Positions 8,399 through 63,420 of a DNA stretch of 64,000 nucleotides are shown here, piece by piece. A program made the translations under genes and the position numbers. The stretch's first letter is position 1. The number at the start of each line of letters is the position of its first letter. The DNA lies in the IMG/VR virus record IMGVR_UViG_3300046526_000553, positions 64,001-128,000 of that record. One strand, 5' to 3'. This stretch comes from a virus (lineage: Duplodnaviria; Caudoviricetes). A model generated the notes under the pieces. The model was not told the DNA's origin and searched no databases. It was given only the letters and a program-made list of their open reading frames with translations.

Positions 8399-8566
8399 TT
8401 ATTTACTGTTCCTTATCAGTTGTCGAATAATTTTACGTACCCACCCCGATGCGGTCATGCCTTCATCGTGCAAGATATCTATGAATTCGTCATAGGTATC
8501 CATGTCAACGTATACGACGATGCGTCTTTGCTGTTTTTGTTTTATCCTTGGGCTTAGTTGACTCAT
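8399..8566 (-). CDS. 55-aa possible ribbon-helix-helix protein
   Basis: MSQLSPRIKQKQQRRIVVYVDMDTYDEF...SGWVRKII read by eye; overlaps Ro60 3' end. Confidence 0.45.
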   Translation of the reverse strand: MSQLSPRIKQKQQRRIVVYVDMDTYDEFIDILHDEGMTASGWVRKIIRQLIRNSK

Positions 8567-10046
8567 ATAAATCAATCTTCTCTATCTTATTTACTAATGC
8601 GTTCTTATCGGTATTTAACAACTTTAACACGTCGAAAATTTTGTCTGAAAATCCAGCAATCTGATAGACCTGATTTTCAGGAAACTGCATCGTACCATAG
8701 CCACTTAAGTCAAAAGCGTAGATATATGGATTAGCACCTGTGCGCTTTTTATAATCCTCAAACTGAGCTTTTGGTGTGTAGTAACCTATCCATGCCTGCA
8801 TATCACTGAATATGAAGATGTGGTCATAGGCACGGCTAGCGGTTTCAAAGATAGCGTGAAAGTTAGTGCCATGACCTACAGAAGTGGGGGTGTTAGAACC
8901 ATAGCCATCGTTGCAGTCAGCTAACCAACGCAACTGACCTAGCACACTATCCTGTGTCACATTGTAATACTTGGCAGTATCACCAAAATACATGAAATCA
9001 GCATTGCTTTTCTTTGCCATTGCTACACCGAATAAAGCACCAATTTCGAAATTAGTAGCCTTGCTGCGTTCGCTCATAGAGCTATCCATGCTGCCACTGT
9101 GGTCAACGACCACTAAGGCATTATCGAAAGCAGGCATGTTATTGATTGAAATATCTAGTGCATTGCCAATAGCAGCCAGTGTTTTACGGGCTTCTGGACC
9201 TGCACCCCCATCAATTTCAGCAATTTCCTTATAGGCACTGAAATAACGGAACGGTAGAATCAATGATTTCTTGATAGCCTGCTCATTCTGCAATTGCTTC
9301 AAGGCAATATCAAGCACTTCAGGAGCCTGTTCAATAATATTTCTGAGGTTCCGTAGTAATGCAAACGCTGGAAGTTTGTCTTCCTTCAAAAGCTTAATCC
9401 ATGTATCGGCCTTAAGCTTATCCTTTTCAGCTTCGGTCTTTGCTTTCTGACCAGCCTGGACTAAGCCAGTCTCCCATGTATCAGAGGCACGTAAGGTACC
9501 TTTAATAAGCTGTTGAACAGCTTCGGTGTGAACCGGGTGAACTAGATTAGCTACATCAACAAGACTAACGTCCTTACCTTCGCCACGATATTTAGCTAAA
9601 TTGTAAGCGTTAAAATGTCCAAATGCCTGTGCAAAACCACGCTTAAGTGCATTAGGCTCTGTCTGATGACCAAGTGAATAATAATATGATAGAATTTCTG
9701 TCATATCATCTGGACGACGAATAACATTCTCGAAGAAATACTTTGTCCATGCTTCGCCCTTTACTCGATTAGCAATTTCACCAGCAACCACGTGGCTGAC
9801 ACTACGCATACCGAATTCATTACGAGCGTACACAGCAGCTTTGGCTGCAAACATAGGGTCTACGCTATTAAGTAATTCCTTGAGTTTATCAATGCCATCA
9901 TCAGAACTTCTATAATATTGATTCTGTACAAAACTTGTTAATAGGATTGATACAAACTCCAGCTTAGGGTTTTGCTGGAAAGCTTGACCACCAGCATTAT
10001 TAATAACCATAGTTGGTGAAGTTGTAGCGTTGAATCTACTGCTCAT
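8505..10046 (-). CDS. rsr: Ro60/TROVE-vWA RNA-binding protein
   Basis: NNAGGQAF N-terminus, YARNEFGMRS, ALLRNLRN TROVE motif, DHSGSM MIDAS vWA, IFSDMQ, IAGFSD. Confidence 0.95.
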   Translation of the reverse strand: MSSRFNATTSPTMVINNAGGQAFQQNPKLEFVSILLTSFVQNQYYRSSDDGIDKLKELLNSVDPMFAAKAAVYARNEFGMRSVSHVVAGEIANRVKGEAWTKYFFENVIRRPDDMTEILSYYYSLGHQTEPNALKRGFAQAFGHFNAYNLAKYRGEGKDVSLVDVANLVHPVHTEAVQQLIKGTLRASDTWETGLVQAGQKAKTEAEKDKLKADTWIKLLKEDKLPAFALLRNLRNIIEQAPEVLDIALKQLQNEQAIKKSLILPFRYFSAYKEIAEIDGGAGPEARKTLAAIGNALDISINNMPAFDNALVVVDHSGSMDSSMSERSKATNFEIGALFGVAMAKKSNADFMYFGDTAKYYNVTQDSVLGQLRWLADCNDGYGSNTPTSVGHGTNFHAIFETASRAYDHIFIFSDMQAWIGYYTPKAQFEDYKKRTGANPYIYAFDLSGYGTMQFPENQVYQIAGFSDKIFDVLKLLNTDKNALVNKIEKIDLYESTKPKDKTKTAKTHRRIR

Positions 10047-11576: not shown

Positions 11577-11789
11577 CTATTTTAGCTTGATGTTCGGGAT
11601 AGTAGATTCCCTTGCAACATAGACCTTGAATTCATCAAATAATATATTTCTTAAGAATTTATCGCATTGTTCGCACAAACCGAGTGACCACGAATCAAAA
11701 TTATAAACATGGTGGATTTTTATACCATCGGATTCAATGTGTTCGCAGTTTCTAAAGATAGGGTTAGGTAGGTTGGCTGCTTTGGTCAT
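11577..11789 (-). CDS. hypothetical protein (true start MTKAAN)
   Basis: ATG 7 nt below GGTGGTATAAT; longer track ORF runs into the repeat array. Confidence 0.55.
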   Translation of the reverse strand: MTKAANLPNPIFRNCEHIESDGIKIHHVYNFDSWSLGLCEQCDKFLRNILFDEFKVYVARESTIPNIKLK

Positions 11790-11814
11790 ATAGTTATTAT
11801 ACCACCTGCAGCCA

Positions 11815-12426
11815 ACCTGTGTTAGGAGAAGAGTAAAGCCATGCCTTGCCTGCCTTTCCGTACCAACAAGCGCTACCTCGACCGGACACAACTCAACTCG
11901 TCTTGAGGCGACCGGACTCGTGGCGACTCGCCTGCCATGGCTGGACGCTTCGAGACTCGCGATGACCGGACCGGACATCCACGACTCGCTCAGACCTAGC
12001 GCTCCCAGTCACATCTGGACTCGCCGGGACGTGGCTTGACTCACCTGCACTACCTTGATTATGCGGAAACCGGTCATGACAAAACCTATCTCGAAACGTC
12101 TCGTCTCAACACAACATGCCTGCCTTGAGGAGACTTGACGCACCTGGACCTAACTCGACTCGGCTCAACTCGTCGTGAGGAGACTTGACCGGACACTCCT
12201 AGCCTGCCATGAATTGACTCACCTTGACCCGTCAGGAGATGACTTGACCGGACGCACCTCGTCTTGCCTGCCCTGCCTGGACAACCCCAACTTGCCACGA
12301 AAAGAGGTGTCTGAACTTATTGCGACTTTCCCAGCCTGCTATTCCACTCCATGTCATGCCTAGACAATCGCACCGGGACATGACGTGACGAAACGTGACT
12401 CGCCTGCCCTGTCTAAGTTATTAGAC
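11815..12426 (-). ncRNA. VIPR-like guide array A: units of G(G/T/A)Y-NN pentamers separated by GGCA
   Basis: strict 5-nt periodicity, e.g. ggcta ggagt gtccg gtcaa gtctc ctcac gacga gttga gccga gtcga; about 8 units delimited by GGCAGGC. Confidence 0.85.
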
Positions 12427-12996
12427 CTAGACCGGAACAGCTACAAATCCATTAGTCGTACTAATATCTTCGTTTTTACTGTTCTTATCAGCTCCCTTAA
12501 TCCGAGCACGATTTGAAGTTTTCTTCGCCGGTTTAGATATAGCCACATCTTCTTTCTCTTTGGCTTCATCGACCGCTTGCCACACTTTAGCTAATTCAAC
12601 AATATGCTTGTATTTATTCTCAACATTAGTTAATTCAACTAAAGCAGTTTTTAAAAACTGTTCCCGTAAGTCTGGACGTTCCAAAACATCTGTCGTCCAT
12701 CGAAAGCCTCCACCTGCGTCTCTGTCAATATCCAGAGAGGTTAGAACTCTAACTTCGGTATCTAATTGTTCAGAATAAACAGTAAAGCTTTTGATAAGCT
12801 GCCTAGCTTCTTCCAGATTCCAACGATTAGCAGCTTCATCTTTATCCCAAGTGAAAAATTTATGAAGTGGGCTTGATGGCTTTCTAGCTGATTCAACAAG
12901 TGCTTCTTCTTTTAACAAACCATTAGCATCGATGTTCATTAACCTGCTAAATTCAGACTGAACTTCTGCCGTTAGTTTTTTCGGAAAACTATTCAT
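12427..12996 (-). CDS. accessory protein of the RAMP/array operon
   Basis: AAGGAG RBS; GLL..EALVESAR.PSSPLHKFFTWD.DEAA.RW.LEEARQLI motif; sits between RAMP gene and array. Confidence 0.8.
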   Translation of the reverse strand: MNSFPKKLTAEVQSEFSRLMNIDANGLLKEEALVESARKPSSPLHKFFTWDKDEAANRWNLEEARQLIKSFTVYSEQLDTEVRVLTSLDIDRDAGGGFRWTTDVLERPDLREQFLKTALVELTNVENKYKHIVELAKVWQAVDEAKEKEDVAISKPAKKTSNRARIKGADKNSKNEDISTTNGFVAVPV

Positions 12997-13031: not shown

Positions 13032-13170
13032 GGCTGGCGCTGCTGGAGTATAAACCATATTGATTTATTAATCAAGCTTTGCCAGCCTTGCCGTGACGAA
13101 CCACGACTGGTCTTGTGGCATCTGGACTCAACAAGACTCGACTCGCCTGCCAAACATTGCCTTGACTTAT
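13032..13170 (-). ncRNA. single pentamer guide unit plus hairpin between the two operon genes
   Basis: ggca ggcga gtcga gtctt gttga gtcca gatgc cacaa gacca gtcgt ggttc gtcac ggcaa; GGCTGGC/GCCAGCC stem. Confidence 0.75.
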
Positions 13171-13188: not shown

Positions 13189-13884
13189 CTACTTCTTAAC
13201 TTTGCTTACCTTTTTAGCAGGTTCCTTACCATCACTAGGGCTTGGGCTCTCGACATCAAATGTGCCAAAACCCAAACCAGCTGATGCTCGTGAATCAGGT
13301 CTTCCTTCACCTAGACCAACTTGCAGACCAACTCGACGGAGCAAATTTAACATATCTTCCAATGAAAATTGGTCTTCGTCAAATTTTATGACTGGCAAAG
13401 CATACCATTCACGCCACAAAGGACGAACACGAATGTCAAAAACACCTGTTGCATTTCTTACAGCAGCTTCGTTTCTTTCAGGTTCCCCGTAGATGCGTAC
13501 TAAAGGTTGCCCATCAACTTTGTCGAAACCTTGAGCTTTAACAAAGATGGAAAGCTTTGCGCGAGTCATTGTGAACCCAGTCAAACGACATGCACTGATG
13601 GCTGCAGCTCGAATAGATGAAGCTGGAATCCCAATCCAACCCTCAATGCTCTTATGCATTGCTTGGTGGTAATCATCATCGAAGTTACGGGCTTCCCGTA
13701 CTTTCTTGGCTCCTTGCTTAGTTGAGCCATCCATTTTGCTCATCATCGCTTGCATAGCTTTTTGGCTAAAGCGAGATTGCATATACGGTGCATTACCTTT
13801 CAATTTAACCTGCACCGCTTTTATACGAGGCGCTGAAATTGCAACAGCGACCTCTTTTTTAGTAGATTTTTTTGGACTTGGCAT
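13189..13884 (-). CDS. Cas7/RAMP-superfamily-like protein (Vipr-like)
   Basis: beta1 VKLKGNAPY, GIPASSIRAAAISA (RAMP IPxSS helix), C-terminal Gly-rich loop GLGEGRP...GLGFGTFDV; no cas1/2/3/5 or CRISPR nearby. Confidence 0.8.
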   Translation of the reverse strand: MPSPKKSTKKEVAVAISAPRIKAVQVKLKGNAPYMQSRFSQKAMQAMMSKMDGSTKQGAKKVREARNFDDDYHQAMHKSIEGWIGIPASSIRAAAISACRLTGFTMTRAKLSIFVKAQGFDKVDGQPLVRIYGEPERNEAAVRNATGVFDIRVRPLWREWYALPVIKFDEDQFSLEDMLNLLRRVGLQVGLGEGRPDSRASAGLGFGTFDVESPSPSDGKEPAKKVSKVKK

Positions 13885-13923: not shown

Positions 13924-13952
13924 ACTATACACCAACGTAACAATTATGTCAA
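13924..13952 (-). promoter_or_regulatory. promoter of RAMP operon
   Basis: TTGACA-17 nt (ending TTGGTG)-TATAGT. Confidence 0.8.
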
Positions 13953-31300: not shown

Positions 31301-31745
31301 CTTATTTTTAAATTGCTTTAGTATTATTTTTAATACCTGAGTATATCATAAGCCATTGCTAGTGTATAAGCAAGGGTTTTTTAAGCCATTTTAAGCCTGT
31401 TTAAGCGTAGTTTACTTACTACCCTGTGAATGTATCAAGTATACAAAAACGCCCCTTACGGGGCGCTTGTGGTAGTGGCTAGCTGTTAATCTTATCAAGC
31501 GGTTTTAGTACCCTGTTGATAAGTGTCAGATTATTATGCTTACACTTTACAGTAACAATGTACTATCATCATTACTGTACTTACTATTATACGCTAGTCT
31601 GTACAAAATGTCAAGTATATTTTTAATAATCTTAAACAAAATACGAACAAAAATAAACCACCTATTATAGTGGTTTATTGCCTTGACCTGATGCGACTAG
31701 CCTGGACGTGCCCCAAGGCGTCACGATAAGCCATTATACTAGTTT

Positions 31746-32299
31746 TTATTGATTAATCAAGTGTAACTTAATGCTTGAGTTATACCATGCTCGATAACCT
31801 GAATTTTGAAATATCTGGTATGCATACTTTGCATTATAATCAGGATTAAGCAACAGTTTTGCACTGGGGCGCGAATAAGCAAGTTTGCCGTATCGGTTCA
31901 CTTGAAAACATGACCAACTATCATCATGTGTTATGTCACTGTATAGATGCGCGTTAGGGTTACCACCACTTTCAAGCATCATAATATGTATTGCGTTTGT
32001 CCAGTATTTTTCTGGCCAATACTTTACAATCCCTGCAATGCAAGCGTTACGACTAGCCACCGATACACTAGTGATACGTTTACCCCGTATCACTTGCTTG
32101 CTTTTTGGTATAGTGGCTACTATTTTTTTATTGCGCTCAATTGTGCTTGTACTTGCTGATTAACTGTAACCTGTTGGCTTTTTTCGTAATGTATGCCAAG
32201 TGTAAAGCCGATTGCAAGCATTACCACTGTAAGCAATACCGCCGTTTTTACCTTTTCGACTATGTTTTTGATGTTTTTGTTGTTAGTGAAGTTTTTCAT
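31746..32299 (-). CDS. membrane-anchored lytic transglycosylase (SLT-like), via likely -1 frameshift
   Basis: ESGGNPNA, SWSCFQVN, LLNPDYNAKYAY motifs; upstream 59-aa TM ORF 32120-32299 ends in A AAA AAA TAG. Confidence 0.7.
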
Positions 32300-44308: not shown

Positions 44309-45427
44309 CTATGCTTCATTCTCTGCAGGAATCAAAAGATAATCTTCCATCGGAAGTGAATTTGACTCCTCATCTTGGTAATGTCTTGCGGTCACATAAT
44401 CAGCATCCTTCTTCTCGTTAATATATCCGGGATTTATAAACTTAACGAATTGTCTTTCGGTACTCGCATCATCCATCAGAAGGCAATATTCAGTTTCACC
44501 CGTATCACGGAAATTCCTGCATTCATACAAACGATTACCCTTAACCCCCGTATGGATTAATTTAGCTTTCAAACCTTTTAACATTTCATTTACCCCGAGT
44601 AAAGAAAAAGCCACTTCTCTCAAGTCATTATCTTCAATGCGCATTACTTCTTCGGCAGTTATAGATTTATCAATAATCTTTTGCCAGAGAGTCTTATCAA
44701 AGTTAAGTCCTTTAAGAAAATAGAACCGCTTACCGCCCTTCCATCTAATAGCAGGAGAAATCTCTGAGTGAAAACGATTACGCTCATCAATAAGCACTAA
44801 TGGAGTTGGAACAATGTATAGTATATTCTCCCATTCGACCCTATAGCCAGCACCAGCTTCGATAGCTTTCAAAAGTAATCCTGAATATTCAAGGTAAAGT
44901 CGGTCATTTTCGTTAGGCAATTTATCTTTATCTGGGTTCAAACAATACTCATATTCAAATACAAAATATTCAAATTCAACATCTAAAGCTGACCAATAAG
45001 CACTCCCAGCACTCCCAGCACTCCGAGCACTCCCAGCACTCCGAGCACTCCAAGCACTCCGAGCACTCCAAGCACTCCGAGCACTCCCAGCACTCCGAGC
45101 ACTCCGAGCACTCCCAGCACTCCGAGCACTCCGAGCACTCCCAGCACTCCGAGCACTCCGAGCACTCCCAGCACTCCCAGCACTCCCAGCACTCCAAGCA
45201 CTCCAAGCACTCCCAGCACTCCCAGCACTCCCAGCACTTTTTCGGAATTTATTAACAAAAGGGTCTTTTAACCATACTACTTTTTTAGGCCTAGGAAGAT
45301 TAAACAAATCGTAGGTTTTTAAGATAGATTCAGCAGCTTTTTCTTTATCTAAATTGAAATCTTTGCGCTCCACTAAAGCACACATCTTATCAATCAACAA
45401 TGCCGTATCTTCATGATAGTCAGCCAT
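44309..45427 (-). CDS. DUF6745-like protein with SA(G/R/W) repeat tract
   Basis: DERNRFHSEISPAIRW...YFL.G motif; partner gene upstream. Confidence 0.65.
   Translation of the reverse strand: MADYHEDTALLIDKMCALVERKDFNLDKEKAAESILKTYDLFNLPRPKKVVWLKDPFVNKFRKSAGSAGSAGSAWSAWSAGSAGSAGSARSARSAGSARSARSAGSARSARSAGSARSAWSARSAWSARSAGSARSAGSAGSAYWSALDVEFEYFVFEYEYCLNPDKDKLPNENDRLYLEYSGLLLKAIEAGAGYRVEWENILYIVPTPLVLIDERNRFHSEISPAIRWKGGKRFYFLKGLNFDKTLWQKIIDKSITAEEVMRIEDNDLREVAFSLLGVNEMLKGLKAKLIHTGVKGNRLYECRNFRDTGETEYCLLMDDASTERQFVKFINPGYINEKKDADYVTARHYQDEESNSLPMEDYLLIPAENEA
44996..45238 (-). repeat. 9-bp coding tandem repeat AGTGCT(G/C/T)GG, ~27 copies
   Basis: direct reading. Confidence 0.95.
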
Positions 45428-59398: not shown

Positions 59399-59656
59399 TT
59401 GGGAGTAGGATTTATGACTCATATTACGATTTTTTCAAACAAAAGCTGTGCGTCTTGCAGTATGATAAAGAAATTCCTTAAGCTTAAAAATATGTCCTAT
59501 AATGAAGTCGATTTGGACGAACATCCTGGGCTCCAAGCCGAAGCGTTCAAACTGAGTGGGGTTATGTCAGTCCCAGTTATTGTTATTGTTAGGGATGAGA
59601 AGCAGTCAGTTTTGGTCGGATATAATCTTGCTAAATTAGCTCCTGCACTGGCTTAG
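59399..59656 (+). CDS. glutaredoxin/NrdH-like protein
   Basis: CASC active site, SVPVIVI. Confidence 0.85.
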   Translation: MGVGFMTHITIFSNKSCASCSMIKKFLKLKNMSYNEVDLDEHPGLQAEAFKLSGVMSVPVIVIVRDEKQSVLVGYNLAKLAPALA

Positions 59657-60138
59657 TTGAATAAAGGATAGTATTTCTCAAATTTCTCACTGTTTAAGAA
59701 AAGAGTCGGTTTCTGCCCCAATTTTAATTCGTGCCACCACAAAGCCATCCGACCTGACCGACCGTTACCATCCGCAAAACTATGTACGTGCTCATAACGC
59801 TTATGCATTTCAATTGGGTCAAGATTTTGCCAATTTTCTTTCATATCCAAAAGCCAGTTATTAAGCAAATCATCCACTAACCACCAAGAAGGAGCTATTT
59901 TGTCTCCAATATATACATTAATTTTGGACATACTGCGAGTATAACCACGCTGGTCTGTTCTCAGGTCGTCTTGAAGCAAAGTTATCATTTTCTGGAGTTT
60001 ACAGATATTGGAAAAAGTCAATTCTGGCTGTTTTTTGAACCAGTTCCAGGCAACTAGGGATTGTTTGTCATAAGCTAGGTCGTCGATAGACTCTATCAAA
60101 TTCGATTCATGAATATACTGTTTTATATCGAGTTTCAC
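59653..60138 (-). CDS. Fic-domain protein
   Basis: HSFADGNGRSGR motif. Confidence 0.9.
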   Translation of the reverse strand: MKLDIKQYIHESNLIESIDDLAYDKQSLVAWNWFKKQPELTFSNICKLQKMITLLQDDLRTDQRGYTRSMSKINVYIGDKIAPSWWLVDDLLNNWLLDMKENWQNLDPIEMHKRYEHVHSFADGNGRSGRMALWWHELKLGQKPTLFLNSEKFEKYYPLFN

Positions 60139-60919: not shown

Positions 60920-60948
60920 TTGACATTTCCGTTACGCTGGTGTATATT
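60920..60948 (+). promoter_or_regulatory. promoter of array B
   Basis: TTGACA-17 nt (ending CTGGTG)-TATATT, 7 nt before first pentamer. Confidence 0.8.
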
Positions 60949-60955
60949 AATTATT

Positions 60956-61835
60956 GGCTTGGATAGTCCTGCTTAGACACCTCTGGGCTCGGTGCGTCAC
61001 GGCTAGGCGAGGCAGGCGAGTTGAGTCTGGTCTCGGTGCGTCGTGGCACGTCGTGGTGCGTTGTGGTAATCGGAGCGGGGCAGGTTATGTTCAGGCAAGT
61101 CGGGGCTACGCAGGCACGTCGCCATTTGGCTAGATACGGTTAGTCTAGATATGTTTAGACAGGGCATGGCAGGCAAGGCTGGGTTCCGATGACTCGTTGG
61201 GGCTGGTCGTCACGAGTCACGGCTAGGCGAGGCAGGCTAGGAAAGTCGGGATGCGTCCCGCCATGTCGAGGCGCGTGATGACATGACAAGATATGGACAG
61301 GCAGGCTTGGCACCGATGTCGCGGTCAGTCGAGACCTGTCAGGGTCAGACTAAGCATGGCAGGCGGGGGAAGTCGCGTCGGGTTGAGCCGGGGTTTGGTT
61401 TGTCGGGTCTTGAGTTAGCGTGTTCTGTTGAGGTTAGGCAGGCAAGTCGTTTCTTGGTATGTCTCCTCGTGGCACGTCGAGTCATGTCAAGGCGTTACAC
61501 GGCAGGCATGACGTGGATGGCGAGTTCCGACGAGTCCGTGCGAGATTAGGCAATGCAGGCAAGATGTGACAGGTTCTGTTGTGTCGAGTTTTGTCAGGTT
61601 GGGGCGTAGCTAAGCAATGCATGGCAGGCAAGTCGAGTCCCGGTTAATCGGGTCGAGTCCGGACGAGTCTTGGCGGGGCGAGGTAAGGTGCGATTATTAT
61701 TGACTTTTAGGTGGTGTTGGTGTAATGTATATTATTGGCGGGGAATGTCGAGGCATACTGAGTTAAGTCTTGGTGAGTCAGGTCGAGACTAGTCAATGCA
61801 GGTACGTCGAGGTTTATTATGTCGAGTCAAGGCTT
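60956..61835 (+). ncRNA. VIPR-like guide array B (stand-alone, ~14 units, second internal promoter 61700-61728)
   Basis: G(G/T/A)Y-NN periodicity, GGCA/TGCA separators, GC-rich island in AT-rich DNA. Confidence 0.85.
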
Positions 61836-61839
61836 CCCT

Positions 61840-63420
61840 TTATATAAACCACCGCCGTTCAGAGGTCTGAGGCGTGGAATTGCTCCACGTCTTTTCCCTT
61901 TTTTCACTCATTCCCTCAATATTAACGTTATCATCTTCAGCCTTACTTTCTCTGTCATCAGAATATAAACTCCAAATTTTTGGAATTTTTCCGCTGGGCT
62001 CCCATACAGCTAGAGCACAACTATAGAAAGAATCTGCGTGTCCTTCAGAACTTTCCTGTGCTCGTAAATCATTGTCAACCATTAGTATTTGTGAAATCTG
62101 GCGACGTTCATTTATAAAATGAATAAGATTTTGATTCACTAACCCACCGAAATGAGCTGCCATAGCACCGGTTCTTCTGCTACTCATAACAATCGGTTGC
62201 ATACAACCGTCTAGCTTTCCTCTTTCAGCATAACTTTGCAGCTCGCCCCTAGTATCATCATAATATAAGTTACTTACATTAAAATATTCACAAACTCTAT
62301 TAACATGGTCAACCTGGTCTTTATAATCAATGCCATCAAACCAGTGTCCATAGACTTGTCTATATGAATAAATATCTTTTCCTTTATCATCCTCATGCTC
62401 GAATTTCTTGGCGAATAAAGCTAAATGTGATGGGTGAACTTTTTTACCAATGTCAAGTCCCGCAACAACAATTTCATCCTGCAATAATGGTTGTGGTTCT
62501 AGTTTACAGTTTTCTCTTGTGCTTAGCTCAATTAATTTGTCTCTTTTTATATAAGAACGTGATAATGCTACTGGCATTGCCTGATATTCTCGGTCAAATG
62601 TATCTGCATCCATCGAGATTCGTATAGCATTTAATTGGTCATAACTATATCTTTCAGGCCATAGTGTAACTTTATTTGGTTCATCAATAATTGAGGGAGC
62701 AATTGTTATTTTGAATAAAGTTCCTATACCCTTTTTATCGAAAAAGAAATCTTGGCCAGTCTGTGGGGTCCCAGCCATTCGACAGATACCATTAGGTTTC
62801 TTAATCATAGGTAATAAGTCGCCCCGAATTGCATTATTTATTTTTTTAATCGCCACTGGGTCAGGAGCAGCGCCATCGGTTTCGGTTTTTAGCGGATCGT
62901 CAACATAAAGTCTGTCACAATGGATTCCTCGATTATTGCCGAGTAATCCTTTGGGGTGTATGGTCATCAACGAGCCTTTTTCACCCCAACTATAACTTAA
63001 GATGCTCTCGGCTTGAGGTTTCCTATCGATAAGCGTTGAGAAGAATGGATTATAAGCAATTTCTTGTTTTAATTTTTTTAGTTGATAACTAGCCATTGAT
63101 TCAGAATATGAAAAATATTGTGCTTCGAAGCCTGCATTGTCCGTTGCAATAAATATCGCATAACAAATATCACAGTGTAATCTTGTACTTTTAAAATGGT
63201 CACGACCAGAAACATCAATTGTATACTTATTTTCTTCAAAGTTTTTGGCAATATCTTCCAAGTATTTTCCTGTAACAAATGTGCTATTAGGCTCGAAACA
63301 ATATCTAAATATATTATCTATGAACCAGTAGAATCCTGAAGACCTAGCTTTCTTCCGTGCCAAATCAATAGCCAAAGCTATCTTCTGCAGCTGCTGTTCT
63401 TGCTCATCACTTTCGTTCAT
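61840..63420 (-). CDS. terL: terminase large subunit
   Basis: GRDHFKST Walker A-like, LYVDDP Walker B, MAGTP, GLDIG RNase H-like domain, HADSFYSCALA. Confidence 0.9.
   Translation of the reverse strand: MNESDEQEQQLQKIALAIDLARKKARSSGFYWFIDNIFRYCFEPNSTFVTGKYLEDIAKNFEENKYTIDVSGRDHFKSTRLHCDICYAIFIATDNAGFEAQYFSYSESMASYQLKKLKQEIAYNPFFSTLIDRKPQAESILSYSWGEKGSLMTIHPKGLLGNNRGIHCDRLYVDDPLKTETDGAAPDPVAIKKINNAIRGDLLPMIKKPNGICRMAGTPQTGQDFFFDKKGIGTLFKITIAPSIIDEPNKVTLWPERYSYDQLNAIRISMDADTFDREYQAMPVALSRSYIKRDKLIELSTRENCKLEPQPLLQDEIVVAGLDIGKKVHPSHLALFAKKFEHEDDKGKDIYSYRQVYGHWFDGIDYKDQVDHVNRVCEYFNVSNLYYDDTRGELQSYAERGKLDGCMQPIVMSSRRTGAMAAHFGGLVNQNLIHFINERRQISQILMVDNDLRAQESSEGHADSFYSCALAVWEPSGKIPKIWSLYSDDRESKAEDDNVNIEGMSEKREKTWSNSTPQTSERRWFI

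What the first reader, a model, noticed from the sequence alone, without database searches (positions are those of the whole stretch)
60920..61835. Second, stand-alone pentamer guide array 47 kb from the RAMP gene
It has the same G(G/T/A)Y-NN grammar and GGCA punctuation as array A but different NN content, and two promoters each begin exactly at a pentamer run. This supports an RNA acting in trans. Several units decode to protein-like strings (KDPYGERE[LF]GEKAY, KVRLVE[LF]RGVYKI, IVxEPDR), while others are AT-rich and may target promoters. Occasional 4-nt steps (CGAT, GGAT) may encode register changes. How new units are acquired without Cas1 is an open question.
Basis: partly seen in the sequence, partly recalled or inferred. 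Interest (0 to 1): 0.85.

Follow-up and report, generated by a model that had tools for sequence, protein, structure and literature searches.

The report
Distal VIPR guide-RNA array in a phage
This 0.9-kb stretch is a second, separately promoted array of about 13 gapped-code guide RNAs for the phage's own VIPR system (a CRISPR-related, RNA-guided DNA silencer first described in 2026 preprints), so it is a real feature but a new example of a known kind, and its targets remain unknown.

Summary
Window 60956-61835 (+) is a 59% G+C, ORF-free island in a 40% G+C phage. It consists of about 158 five-base units of form G-(G/T/A)-(C/T)-N-N, punctuated by 4-nt steps (mostly GGCA before GGC). Two promoter-like sites lie 7-8 nt before pentamer runs.

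It belongs to a published kind: VIPR (bioRxiv 10.64898/2026.04.26.720920, .720927, 2026.10.15.759431). The 231-aa gene 47 kb away is a Vipr. A clade profile hits the solved SUSP1 Vipr (E 4.6e-6), and its model resembles Csm3/Cas7 proteins. Hundreds of relatives carry GGC-NN arrays with the same GGCA punctuation, matching the paper's 'staggered arrays'.

Unusual points:
- The array lies 47 kb from vipr and is larger than the vipr-adjacent arrays. Four complete related phages have arrays only beside vipr.
- Its promoters belong to the same 17-member phage promoter family as the vipr operon promoter.
- Scaffold position 2 is relaxed (G in 40% of units).

No target was found for any array-B guide. 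As a positive control, the single guide between vipr and vap matches rival vipr genes, and only under the published 1-nt-skip rule. Transcription could not be tested.

This scan has already noted VIPR systems in at least 80 other genomes. Verdict: new member of a known kind, modest interest.

The parts
60920..60948 (+). Promoter P1 of the distal array (-35 TTGACA, 17-nt spacer ending in TGGTG, -10 TATATT)
   Evidence: 11 of 12 consensus positions. Member of a 17-copy phage promoter family, with 0.17 copies expected by shuffling. The first pentamer starts 7 nt after the -10.
60956..61696 (+). Distal vrRNA array, part 1: 11 units delimited by GCAGGC. Blocks B00 to B11, each 6-15 pentamers. Three units are split by an internal CGAT or GGAT step.
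   Evidence: Segmentation and block table; GCAGGC positions; periodicity.
61700..61728 (+). Internal promoter P2 (-35 TTGACT, spacer ending in TGGTG, -10 TAATGT)
   Evidence: Same promoter family. The first pentamer starts 8 nt after the -10.
61737..61835 (+). Distal vrRNA array, part 2: blocks B12 (12 pentamers) and B13 (7), separated by TGCA
61869..61903 (+). Terminator-like hairpin with T-run. It lies inside the 3' end of the convergent terminase gene.
   Evidence: 10-pair stem followed by a T-run. terL is 61840-63420 (-) and matches phrog_38 at E 3e-20.
13189..13884 (-). vipr gene (231 aa): the RAMP protein that should load the array's RNAs in trans
   Evidence: Single sequence against PDB 36pp 'SUSP1 Vipr protein', E 0.0028. 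Clade profile, E 4.6e-6 over the thumb and G-loop region. AlphaFold2 model (pLDDT 73) matches Csm3/Cas7 chains at E 2e-5. It is the only vipr copy in the 143.8-kb genome.
13924..13952 (-). Promoter of the vipr operon, same family as P1 and P2
13083..13147 (-). Single vrRNA unit between vipr and vap (A2, 13 pentamers). Serves as positive control for the gapped code.
   Evidence: 11 sites with at least 80% NN match in relatives' loci under the 1-nt skip rule, none under 0-, 2- or 3-nt skips and none for shuffled guides. The sites inspected lie at the homologous, in-frame codons of rival vipr genes. In a separate scan, 10 of 12 hits at 21/26 or better lay inside vipr homologues.
12427..12996 (-). 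vap accessory gene (189 aa)
   Evidence: Homologues found in 104 of the fetched relatives' loci; in the 25 rows listed they lie just downstream of the vipr match. No Pfam, PADLOC or PDB sequence hit. The fold search gave only weak winged-helix-like rows.
11858..12414 (-). vipr-proximal array A1 (about 8 units), same grammar
31650..31760 (-). Further solitary vrRNA gene: own promoter, 11 pentamers, intrinsic terminator

Best explanation
Window 60920-61903 is a stand-alone transcription unit that encodes about 13 VIPR guide RNAs (vrRNAs) for the phage's single Vipr protein, whose gene lies 47 kb away.

Proposed mechanism:
1. Host RNA polymerase starts at P1, and again at P2 for the last two guides. 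It runs through the pentamer tract and stops at the hairpin inside the 3' end of terL (inferred).
2. The precursor is divided at the conserved GGCA-GGC steps, and possibly at the NGAT steps, into guides of roughly 7-15 pentamers. This is inferred by analogy with published 'staggered' arrays.
3. One Vipr protomer binds each pentamer. It buries the G-D-Y scaffold and displays the two N bases (inferred from homology to the solved SUSP1 Vipr filament).
4. The filament recognises double-stranded DNA that reads NN-x-NN-x, skipping every third base. In coding targets the skipped base is the codon wobble. Binding silences transcription of a competing mobile element (taken from the published VIPR work).

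Shown here: the anatomy, the Vipr homology, the shared promoter family, the clade-wide array grammar, the validity of the 1-nt-skip code for one guide of this phage (A2), the codon-like composition of array B's NN bases, and the absence of clear self-targets.

Not shown: transcription, processing, loading by Vipr, and the targets of array B.
For: Literature: VIPR is defined as Vipr + vap + vrRNAs of alternating GGY/NN pentamers with a 1-nt-skip DNA code. It has variant consensus motifs and staggered arrays. Solo vrRNAs act in trans.

Vipr homology. vap co-occurs with vipr in 104 of the fetched loci.

Relatives: 11 + 80 IMG/VR loci and 46 loci from genome assemblies. In the 12 relatives' loci scanned first, every one carries a pentamer run on the vipr strand next to the gene. 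The arrays displayed are punctuated by GGCA.

Array B: grammar is the same as in arrays A1 and A2. The 7-mer GGCAGGC stays strict although scaffold position 2 is otherwise G in only 40% of units.

Promoters: P1, P2 and the vipr operon promoter belong to one family of 17 sites, against 0.17 expected.

Code check: guide A2 matches rival vipr genes only under the 1-nt skip rule.

Composition: array-B NN dinucleotides fit sense codon positions 1-2 at +13.7 bits over background. Every other frame or strand is worse than background.

Self-targeting: nothing above the shuffled-guide null except one borderline site.

No credible ORF and no Rfam family in the region.
Against: No RNA data could be obtained.

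No target at 80% NN match or better was found for array-B guides in about 2.9 Mb of related or pattern-selected phage DNA. The one exception is B12 at 20/24 in a 138-aa ORF of L005. It is in frame but is a single hit and is weak after multiple testing.

Exact-pattern scans for four guides found nothing. B11 and B12 were scanned in both IMG/VR and JGI metagenomes. B10 and B08 were scanned in IMG/VR only.

The scaffold departs from published GGY, with position 2 being G in only 40% of units. The SUSP1 residue that stacks on G2 (W178) aligns with Gly in this clade. Between 0 and 29% of pentamers per block do not fit the scaffold.

Block B05c has a near-self match of 21/26 at window 46003 (-), with a shuffle fraction of 0.01 before multiple testing.

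The transcript is predicted to fold better than shuffles (z = -4.5), which could compete with filament assembly. This may simply reflect the fact that the GTC and GAC scaffolds are complementary.
Confidence: 0.78

Rival explanations
1. Decoy or hijacking array. The RNAs would mainly load the Vipr of a co-infecting rival VIPR phage, or titrate it, and redirect it away from this phage. Published satellite solo vrRNAs do this to SUSP1 VIPR.
For: Solo vrRNAs with this role are documented. By the published operational rule (nearest vipr more than 20 kb away) this array counts as 'solo'. The phage's A2 guide already points at rival vipr genes, so conflict between VIPR systems is plausible here.
Against: The phage has its own Vipr, and the operon promoter is of the same family as P1 and P2. 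The array uses the phage's own unusual relaxed scaffold, which most of the relatives examined do not use: 59 of 91 relatives with array statistics keep G at position 2 in at least 85% of units. No repeated decoy target was found in its own genome or in relatives.
Confidence: 0.08
2. Inert or decaying copy. The array would be a duplicated or relocated remnant of a second VIPR locus that lost its genes, no longer used.
For: Published VIPR-null phages keep vrRNAs after losing vipr-vap. Some blocks are degenerate and B01 holds a 10-nt tandem duplication. A 22-nt stretch is duplicated between two unit ends.
Against: Two near-consensus promoters and a terminator are intact. Scaffold positions 1 and 3 are kept at 89% and 94% over 158 units, and the punctuation is strict. 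There is no vipr or vap remnant elsewhere in the genome. The guides differ completely from array A, so it is not a recent copy. The NN composition is codon-like.
Confidence: 0.08
3. Unrelated element. The region would be a structured non-coding RNA, a ligand for another oligomeric RNA-binding protein, or a DNA-level packaging or bending signal beside the terminase gene.
For: It abuts the terL stop codon. The predicted fold is better than shuffles, z = -4.5. A triplet-plus-2-nt-spacer grammar also occurs in TRAP-binding RNAs (my own knowledge, not tested).
Against: The grammar and punctuation are identical to arrays that flank vipr in this phage and in the relatives examined. There is no Rfam hit. 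No inverted repeat of 14 nt or more is present. Four complete related phages have no such tract near their packaging genes.
Confidence: 0.03

Closest known systems
VIPR systems with 'staggered' vrRNA arrays (bioRxiv 10.64898/2026.04.26.720920, text and legend of fig. S18)
   Same: Lone Vipr RAMP gene plus a vap gene. Continuous tracts of pentamers with a fixed triplet and variable NN. Neighbouring guides are offset by one base, seen here as a 4-nt GGCA step before GGC. There is no long structured tail. Carried by a phage.
   Different: This array is 47 kb from vipr, with two promoters and a terminator of its own. Scaffold position 2 is relaxed to G/T/A. A second kind of 4-nt step (CGAT or GGAT) splits three units. 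I could read only the figure legend, not the figure or supplementary tables, so the VIPR type number is not assigned.
Type II VIPR of Escherichia phage SUSP1 (same preprint; structures in 10.64898/2026.04.26.720927; PDB 36pp)
   Same: Homologous Vipr, with the profile match covering the thumb Arg and the G-loop. Same operon order: vipr, one vrRNA, vap, then an array. Guides of 9-16 pentamers. The 1-nt-skip code is verified here for guide A2. At least one guide is aimed at rival VIPR genes.
   Different: SUSP1 vrRNAs each end in a conserved tail of about 40-60 nt with a pseudoknot, and none is present here. The SUSP1 scaffold is strict GGY. The residue aligned with SUSP1 W178 is Gly here. The Vipr proteins are too distant for tblastn at E 1e-5.
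Solo or orphan vrRNAs of satellites and VIPR-null phages (bioRxiv 10.64898/2026.10.15.759431)
   Same: vrRNA genes without an adjacent vipr, which must use a Vipr supplied in trans. By that paper's rule (more than 20 kb from vipr) this array would be called solo.
   Different: Those loci hold 1-2 vrRNAs, sit in genomes that lack vipr, and borrow a rival's protein. This is a 13-guide array in a phage that encodes its own Vipr, and its promoters are of the same family as the vipr operon promoter.
Orphan CRISPR arrays served in trans by class 1 Cas7 complexes
   Same: A guide array remote from the RAMP effector genes. The RAMP protein polymerises along the guide with a fixed nucleotide period.
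   Different: There is no repeat-spacer organisation. The period is 5 rather than 6. Only 2 of every 5 guide bases are read. No cas1/cas2 genes were seen next to the locus.

Membership tests
VIPR system (vrRNA array) | A Vipr protein (minimal RAMP: RRM core, thumb, glycine-rich loop) is encoded by the same element | tested here: met
   231-aa ORF at 13189-13884 (-). PDB 36pp SUSP1 Vipr at E 0.0028 for the single sequence and 4.6e-6 for the clade profile. The model matches Csm3/Cas7 chains at E 2e-5, probability 1.0. The G-loop motif G-x-G-E-G-R-P is invariant in the clade.
VIPR system (vrRNA array) | A vap accessory gene lies beside vipr | tested here: met
   189-aa ORF at 12427-12996 (-). Homologues occur in 104 of the fetched loci; in the rows listed they lie just downstream of vipr. 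Its fold and function are unresolved.
VIPR system (vrRNA array) | Tandem pentamers with a conserved GGY triplet and hypervariable NN, with 9-16 units per guide | tested here: met
   About 158 pentamers. Position 1 is G in 89% and position 3 is Y in 94%. Position 2 is G in only 40%, T 40%, A 16%. Blocks hold 6-15 units. The paper allows 'a related consensus'. Relaxed position 2 recurs in about 10 of 91 clade members.
VIPR system (vrRNA array) | Targets obey the NN-x (1-nt skip) code, with at least 80% NN match | tested here: inconclusive
   Array B: no hit above the shuffled-guide null, apart from one weak candidate (B12 to L005, 20/24). Same phage, guide A2: met, and only with the 1-nt skip.
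VIPR system (vrRNA array) | No self-targeting at 80% NN match or better | tested here: met
   All blocks fall at or below the null maximum in the phage's own 143.8-kb genome. The exception is B05c at 21/26 (81%), which equals the null maximum and lies in a frame with only a 59-codon opening.
VIPR system (vrRNA array) | Expressed as small RNAs that co-purify with Vipr | not testable with these tools
The phage was found in a single public run.
Type II VIPR (SUSP1 / P. fulva clade) | Each vrRNA ends in a conserved structured 3' tail (a pseudoknot in SUSP1) | tested here: not met
   Units are separated only by the 7-mer GGCAGGC or its variants. There is no conserved 40-60-nt tail and no inverted repeat of 14 nt or more.
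Solo vrRNA (operational definition of 10.64898/2026.10.15.759431) | [quoted passage not shown] | tested here: met
   The nearest and only vipr is 47 kb away. However, the genome is VIPR-positive, unlike the published solo carriers.
CRISPR array | Identical direct repeats of 25-40 nt alternating with unique spacers | tested here: not met
   No such repeat family was found. The only direct repeats are 18-35-nt unit ends at 61-86% identity.

The most novel reading that the evidence does not exclude
This phage spreads its VIPR guide repertoire over at least four separately transcribed loci: the vipr operon, this 13-guide distal array with two promoters, and two single-guide genes. The largest array lies far from the effector gene and shares its promoter type. 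If the distal RNAs are loaded by the phage's own Vipr, remote trans-acting arrays are a normal way for VIPR-positive phages to expand or separately regulate their guide sets. It would also mean that a Vipr of this clade tolerates G, T or A at scaffold position 2.
Probability: 0.6. Interest if true: 0.45.

Novelty: new member of a known kind. Interest (0 to 1): 0.3.

Why it matters
VIPR is only months old as a described system. The published loci keep their guides beside vipr, and solo guides are known only from elements that lack vipr. A VIPR-positive phage with a large, independently promoted array 47 kb away, plus two single-guide genes, has a practical consequence. Surveys that look only within about 20 kb of vipr will undercount guides, and they may label such arrays as 'solo' and infer hijacking.

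The relaxed G-D-Y scaffold, together with a strictly kept GGCAGGC boundary, gives two testable points about how Vipr reads its RNA and where guides are cut. Guide A2 extends the published 1-nt-skip rule and the 'VIPR targets VIPR' theme to a distant Vipr clade. None of this changes the known mechanism.

Tried and rejected
1. TRAP-like or other RNA-binding-protein ligand. This was my first idea, from the triplet-plus-2-nt grammar. I dropped it once the VIPR literature and the Vipr homology were found.

2. Rfam at gathering and E-value thresholds: nothing except tRNAs elsewhere.

3. blastn of the region and tblastn of terL against GenBank phages: no match. terL against IMG/VR found no relative. 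terL is also absent from five Vipr-carrying phage records. I therefore could not ask whether the distal array is conserved in true relatives of this phage.

4. Exact-protein look-ups of terL and Vipr found only one public run, with 100% identical DNA over the terL locus. This gives no population variation to compare.

6. Exact gapped-pattern scans all gave 0 hits. B11 and B12 were scanned in IMG/VR and in JGI metagenomes. B10 (first 10 units) and B08 (first 11 units) were scanned in IMG/VR only. These scans cannot see targets with even one mismatch.

7. Mismatch-tolerant scans in Python covered the phage's own genome, 135 VIPR loci (1.55 Mb), 117 pattern-selected loci (0.99 Mb) and four complete phage genomes. 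Nothing for array B exceeded the shuffled-guide null, apart from B12 to L005. Skip rules of 0, 2 and 3 nt were also negative for array B.

8. Host inference failed. Vipr relatives span many phyla. The Ro60-like protein's best hit is an uncultured huge phage.

9. I looked for a Vipr residue that tracks the relaxed scaffold position 2. No discriminating alignment column was found among 91 sequences. G+C content is only weakly related (Spearman 0.25).

10. The Vap fold search gave only non-significant winged-helix-like rows.

11. The near-self hit of B05c is treated as chance.

Full report
WHAT IS THERE

The window is bases 64001-128000 of a 143,778-bp IMG/VR phage record with 40% G+C. Positions 60956-61835 on the plus strand form a 59% G+C island. 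The longest ORF in it is 88 aa, and none of the small ORFs has a Pfam match.

G and C show autocorrelation of 0.29 at lag 5 and 0.23-0.28 at lag 10, and none at other lags. A register-aware segmentation gives 158 five-base steps, 11 four-base steps and 2 three-base steps. Position 1 is G in 89%, position 2 is G 40% / T 40% / A 16%, position 3 is a pyrimidine in 94%, and positions 4-5 are mixed. Shuffled copies of the region almost never give a called run.

The tract is punctuated by the 7-mer GGCAGGC or close variants. GCAGGC occurs 10 times here, against 9 times in the remaining 63 kb of the same strand. The pentamer straight after each punctuation mark is GGC in ten of eleven cases (GGT after the last mark), although elsewhere position 2 is relaxed. 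Three units also carry an internal CGAT or GGAT step after their first 2-3 pentamers (61187, 61314, 61515).

I count 13 units: 11 after promoter P1 (60920-60948) and 2 after promoter P2 (61700-61728). A hairpin with a T-run at 61869-61903 follows, inside the 3' end of the convergent terminase gene.

WHAT IT IS

A literature search then showed three 2026 preprints describing Viral Interference Programmable Repeat systems. These consist of a minimal RAMP protein (Vipr), an accessory gene (vap) and vrRNAs made of alternating GGY/NN pentamers. One Vipr protomer binds each pentamer, hides GGY and displays NN. The filament reads double-stranded DNA as NN-x-NN, skipping every third base, which is usually the codon wobble, and silences transcription of competing phages and satellites. 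The paper also reports variant repeat consensus motifs and 'staggered arrays' whose neighbouring vrRNAs overlap by one nucleotide.

The 231-aa gene at 13189-13884 (-) is a Vipr:
- It matches the solved SUSP1 Vipr (PDB 36pp) at E 0.0028 on its own.
- A profile of ten clade members matches at E 4.6e-6, over the thumb arginine and the glycine-rich loop.
- Its AlphaFold2 model (pLDDT 73) resembles Csm3/Cas7 subunits at Foldseek E 2e-5.

It is followed by one pentamer unit (A2), a 189-aa gene and a 560-bp array (A1). That order matches the SUSP1 locus. The 189-aa gene has homologues in 104 of the fetched relatives' loci, lying just downstream of vipr in the rows listed.

The closest cultured relative is cyanophage Cy-LDV1 at 60.6% identity. 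IMG/VR holds about 390 relatives, and genome assemblies from many phyla hold 46. In the 12 relatives' loci scanned first, pentamer runs lie next to vipr on the same strand. The arrays I displayed are GGC-NN tracts punctuated by a 4-nt GGCA step and have no long tail. This fits the published staggered architecture, not the SUSP1 type II architecture with its pseudoknot tail.

WHY THE DISTAL ARRAY BELONGS TO THE SAME SYSTEM

Array B has the same scaffold statistics and the same two kinds of 4-nt step as arrays A1 and A2. It shares no 14-mer with them, so it carries different guides.

Its two promoters belong to a phage-wide family, TTGACW, 11-12 nt, then TGGTGTA running into the -10. The family has 17 sites in the genome against 0.17 expected. 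It includes the vipr operon promoter at 13952-13924 (-). The genome has only one vipr, so the array's RNAs can only be served in trans.

DOES THE PUBLISHED CODE HOLD HERE?

It does for guide A2. Across 1.55 Mb of relatives' loci, A2 has 11 sites with at least 80% NN match under the 1-nt skip rule. It has none under 0-, 2- or 3-nt skips, and shuffled guides give none. The sites inspected lie at one homologous, in-frame stretch of the rivals' vipr genes, the conserved Asp-Asp-Phe ... Ser-Thr codons. In an independent IMG/VR pattern scan, 10 of the 12 hits that extended to 21/26 or better lay inside Vipr homologues, with a best score of 23/26. No site in the phage's own genome scores above 18/26. 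This extends the published 'VIPR targets VIPR' observation to a distant clade. It also serves as a positive control for my scans.

TARGETS OF ARRAY B

None was found.
- Own genome: nothing above the shuffled-guide null. The one exception is B05c at 21/26 in a frame with only a 59-codon opening, which I treat as chance.
- Relatives' loci, pattern-selected loci and four complete phage genomes: nothing. The exception is B12 at 20/24, in frame in a 138-aa ORF of L005. It is a single hit and is weak after multiple testing.
- Exact-pattern scans for four guides returned nothing. B11 and B12 were scanned in both IMG/VR and JGI metagenomes. B10 and B08 were scanned in IMG/VR only.

This phage appears in one public run only and has no close relative in the collections. 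Its competitors are therefore probably unsampled. Indirect support comes from composition. The 155 NN dinucleotides of array B fit sense codon positions 1-2 of this phage's genes at 13.7 bits better than genome background. Every other frame or strand fits worse than background.

WHAT IS UNUSUAL

1. Location. In four complete genomes of phages with the same Vipr clade (67-138 kb), arrays occur only within about 2 kb of vipr. Here the largest array is 47 kb away.
2. More dispersed guides. There is a solitary vrRNA gene with its own promoter and terminator at window 31760-31650 (-). Another lies 5.2-5.4 kb before the window start, behind a promoter of the same family.
3. Relaxed scaffold position 2. 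This is not explained by G+C content, because relatives with 41-43% G+C keep 91-98% G. No single Vipr residue tracks it. It recurs in about 10 of 91 clade members, so it is a clade-level variant rather than a one-off.

The residue aligned with SUSP1 W178, which stacks on G2, is glycine in the ten clade sequences aligned.

WHAT REMAINS INFERRED

Transcription, processing at the 4-nt steps, loading by Vipr and silencing are all inferred from homology and the published work. The array RNA is predicted to fold better than shuffles (z = -4.5). I attribute this to GTC and GAC scaffolds being complementary, but I cannot exclude a role.

The main rival readings are a decoy array for rival Vipr proteins, an inert remnant, and an unrelated RNA or DNA element. 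Each is possible but less well supported, for the reasons given under rival explanations.

VERDICT

This is a real and well-formed feature. It is a distal, independently promoted vrRNA array of a staggered-type VIPR system. The kind is already published, and this scan has noted it in at least 80 other genomes. It is therefore a new member of a known kind, with some noteworthy architectural details.

Noticed in passing
window 31650-31760 (-): A solitary vrRNA gene: TTGATT-17-TATAAT promoter, 11 pentamers starting GGCTT, then an intrinsic terminator. It is intergenic, just after the ORF 31746-32093 (-). No target was found.
   Followed up: partly
genome 58640-58790 (+), i.e. 5.2-5.4 kb before the window start: Another single vrRNA-like unit of 13 pentamers. 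It sits behind a promoter of the TGGTGTATAAT family and a leader of about 50 nt that ends in AGCA before GGC.
   Followed up: partly
window 13083-13147 (-): The lone guide between vipr and vap spells, with every third base skipped, a conserved codon stretch of rival vipr genes. It reaches up to 23/26 in IMG/VR loci, and no site in the phage's own genome scores above 18/26. The match appears only under the 1-nt skip rule.
   Followed up: yes
whole genome; in the window e.g. 153, 13952(-), 40062(-), 42126, 50352(-), 60920, 61700: A family of 17 phage promoters: TTGACW, 11-12 nt, then TGGTGTA running into the -10. Shuffling predicts 0.17 copies. The family drives the vipr operon, array B and many other genes.
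   Followed up: partly
window 60996-61030 vs 61216-61250; 61035-61067: Two unit ends share 22 identical bases across the GGCAGGC boundary (86% identity over 35 nt). Block B01 contains a 10-nt tandem repeat of 3.3 copies. These are hints that arrays grow by duplication and slippage at unit boundaries.
   Followed up: no
window 11577-11978 (-): This 133-aa ORF, called as a gene in the Logan contig, runs about 60 codons into array A1. The real gene more likely starts at the internal Met near 11790, behind a TG-extended -10 promoter (11825-11796).
   Followed up: no
L102 (phage record G003) and L055 (Gemmatales MAG): Other members of this Vipr clade have even fewer G at scaffold position 2 (23% and 3%). 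The relaxed scaffold is therefore a recurrent variant.
   Followed up: partly
window 8505-10046 (-), 59653-60138 (-), 44999-45238: A Ro60/TROVE-like RNA-binding protein lies beside the tRNA clusters (17 tRNAs in 2.5-8.2 kb). There is a Fic-domain protein. A 9-nt tandem repeat of 26.7 copies lies inside the 372-aa ORF at 44309-45427 (-).
   Followed up: no
window 60955-61700 (+): The array transcript is predicted to fold more stably than dinucleotide shuffles (z = -4.5). Part of this is expected because the GTC and GAC scaffolds are complementary. Whether local hairpins matter is unknown.
   Followed up: no
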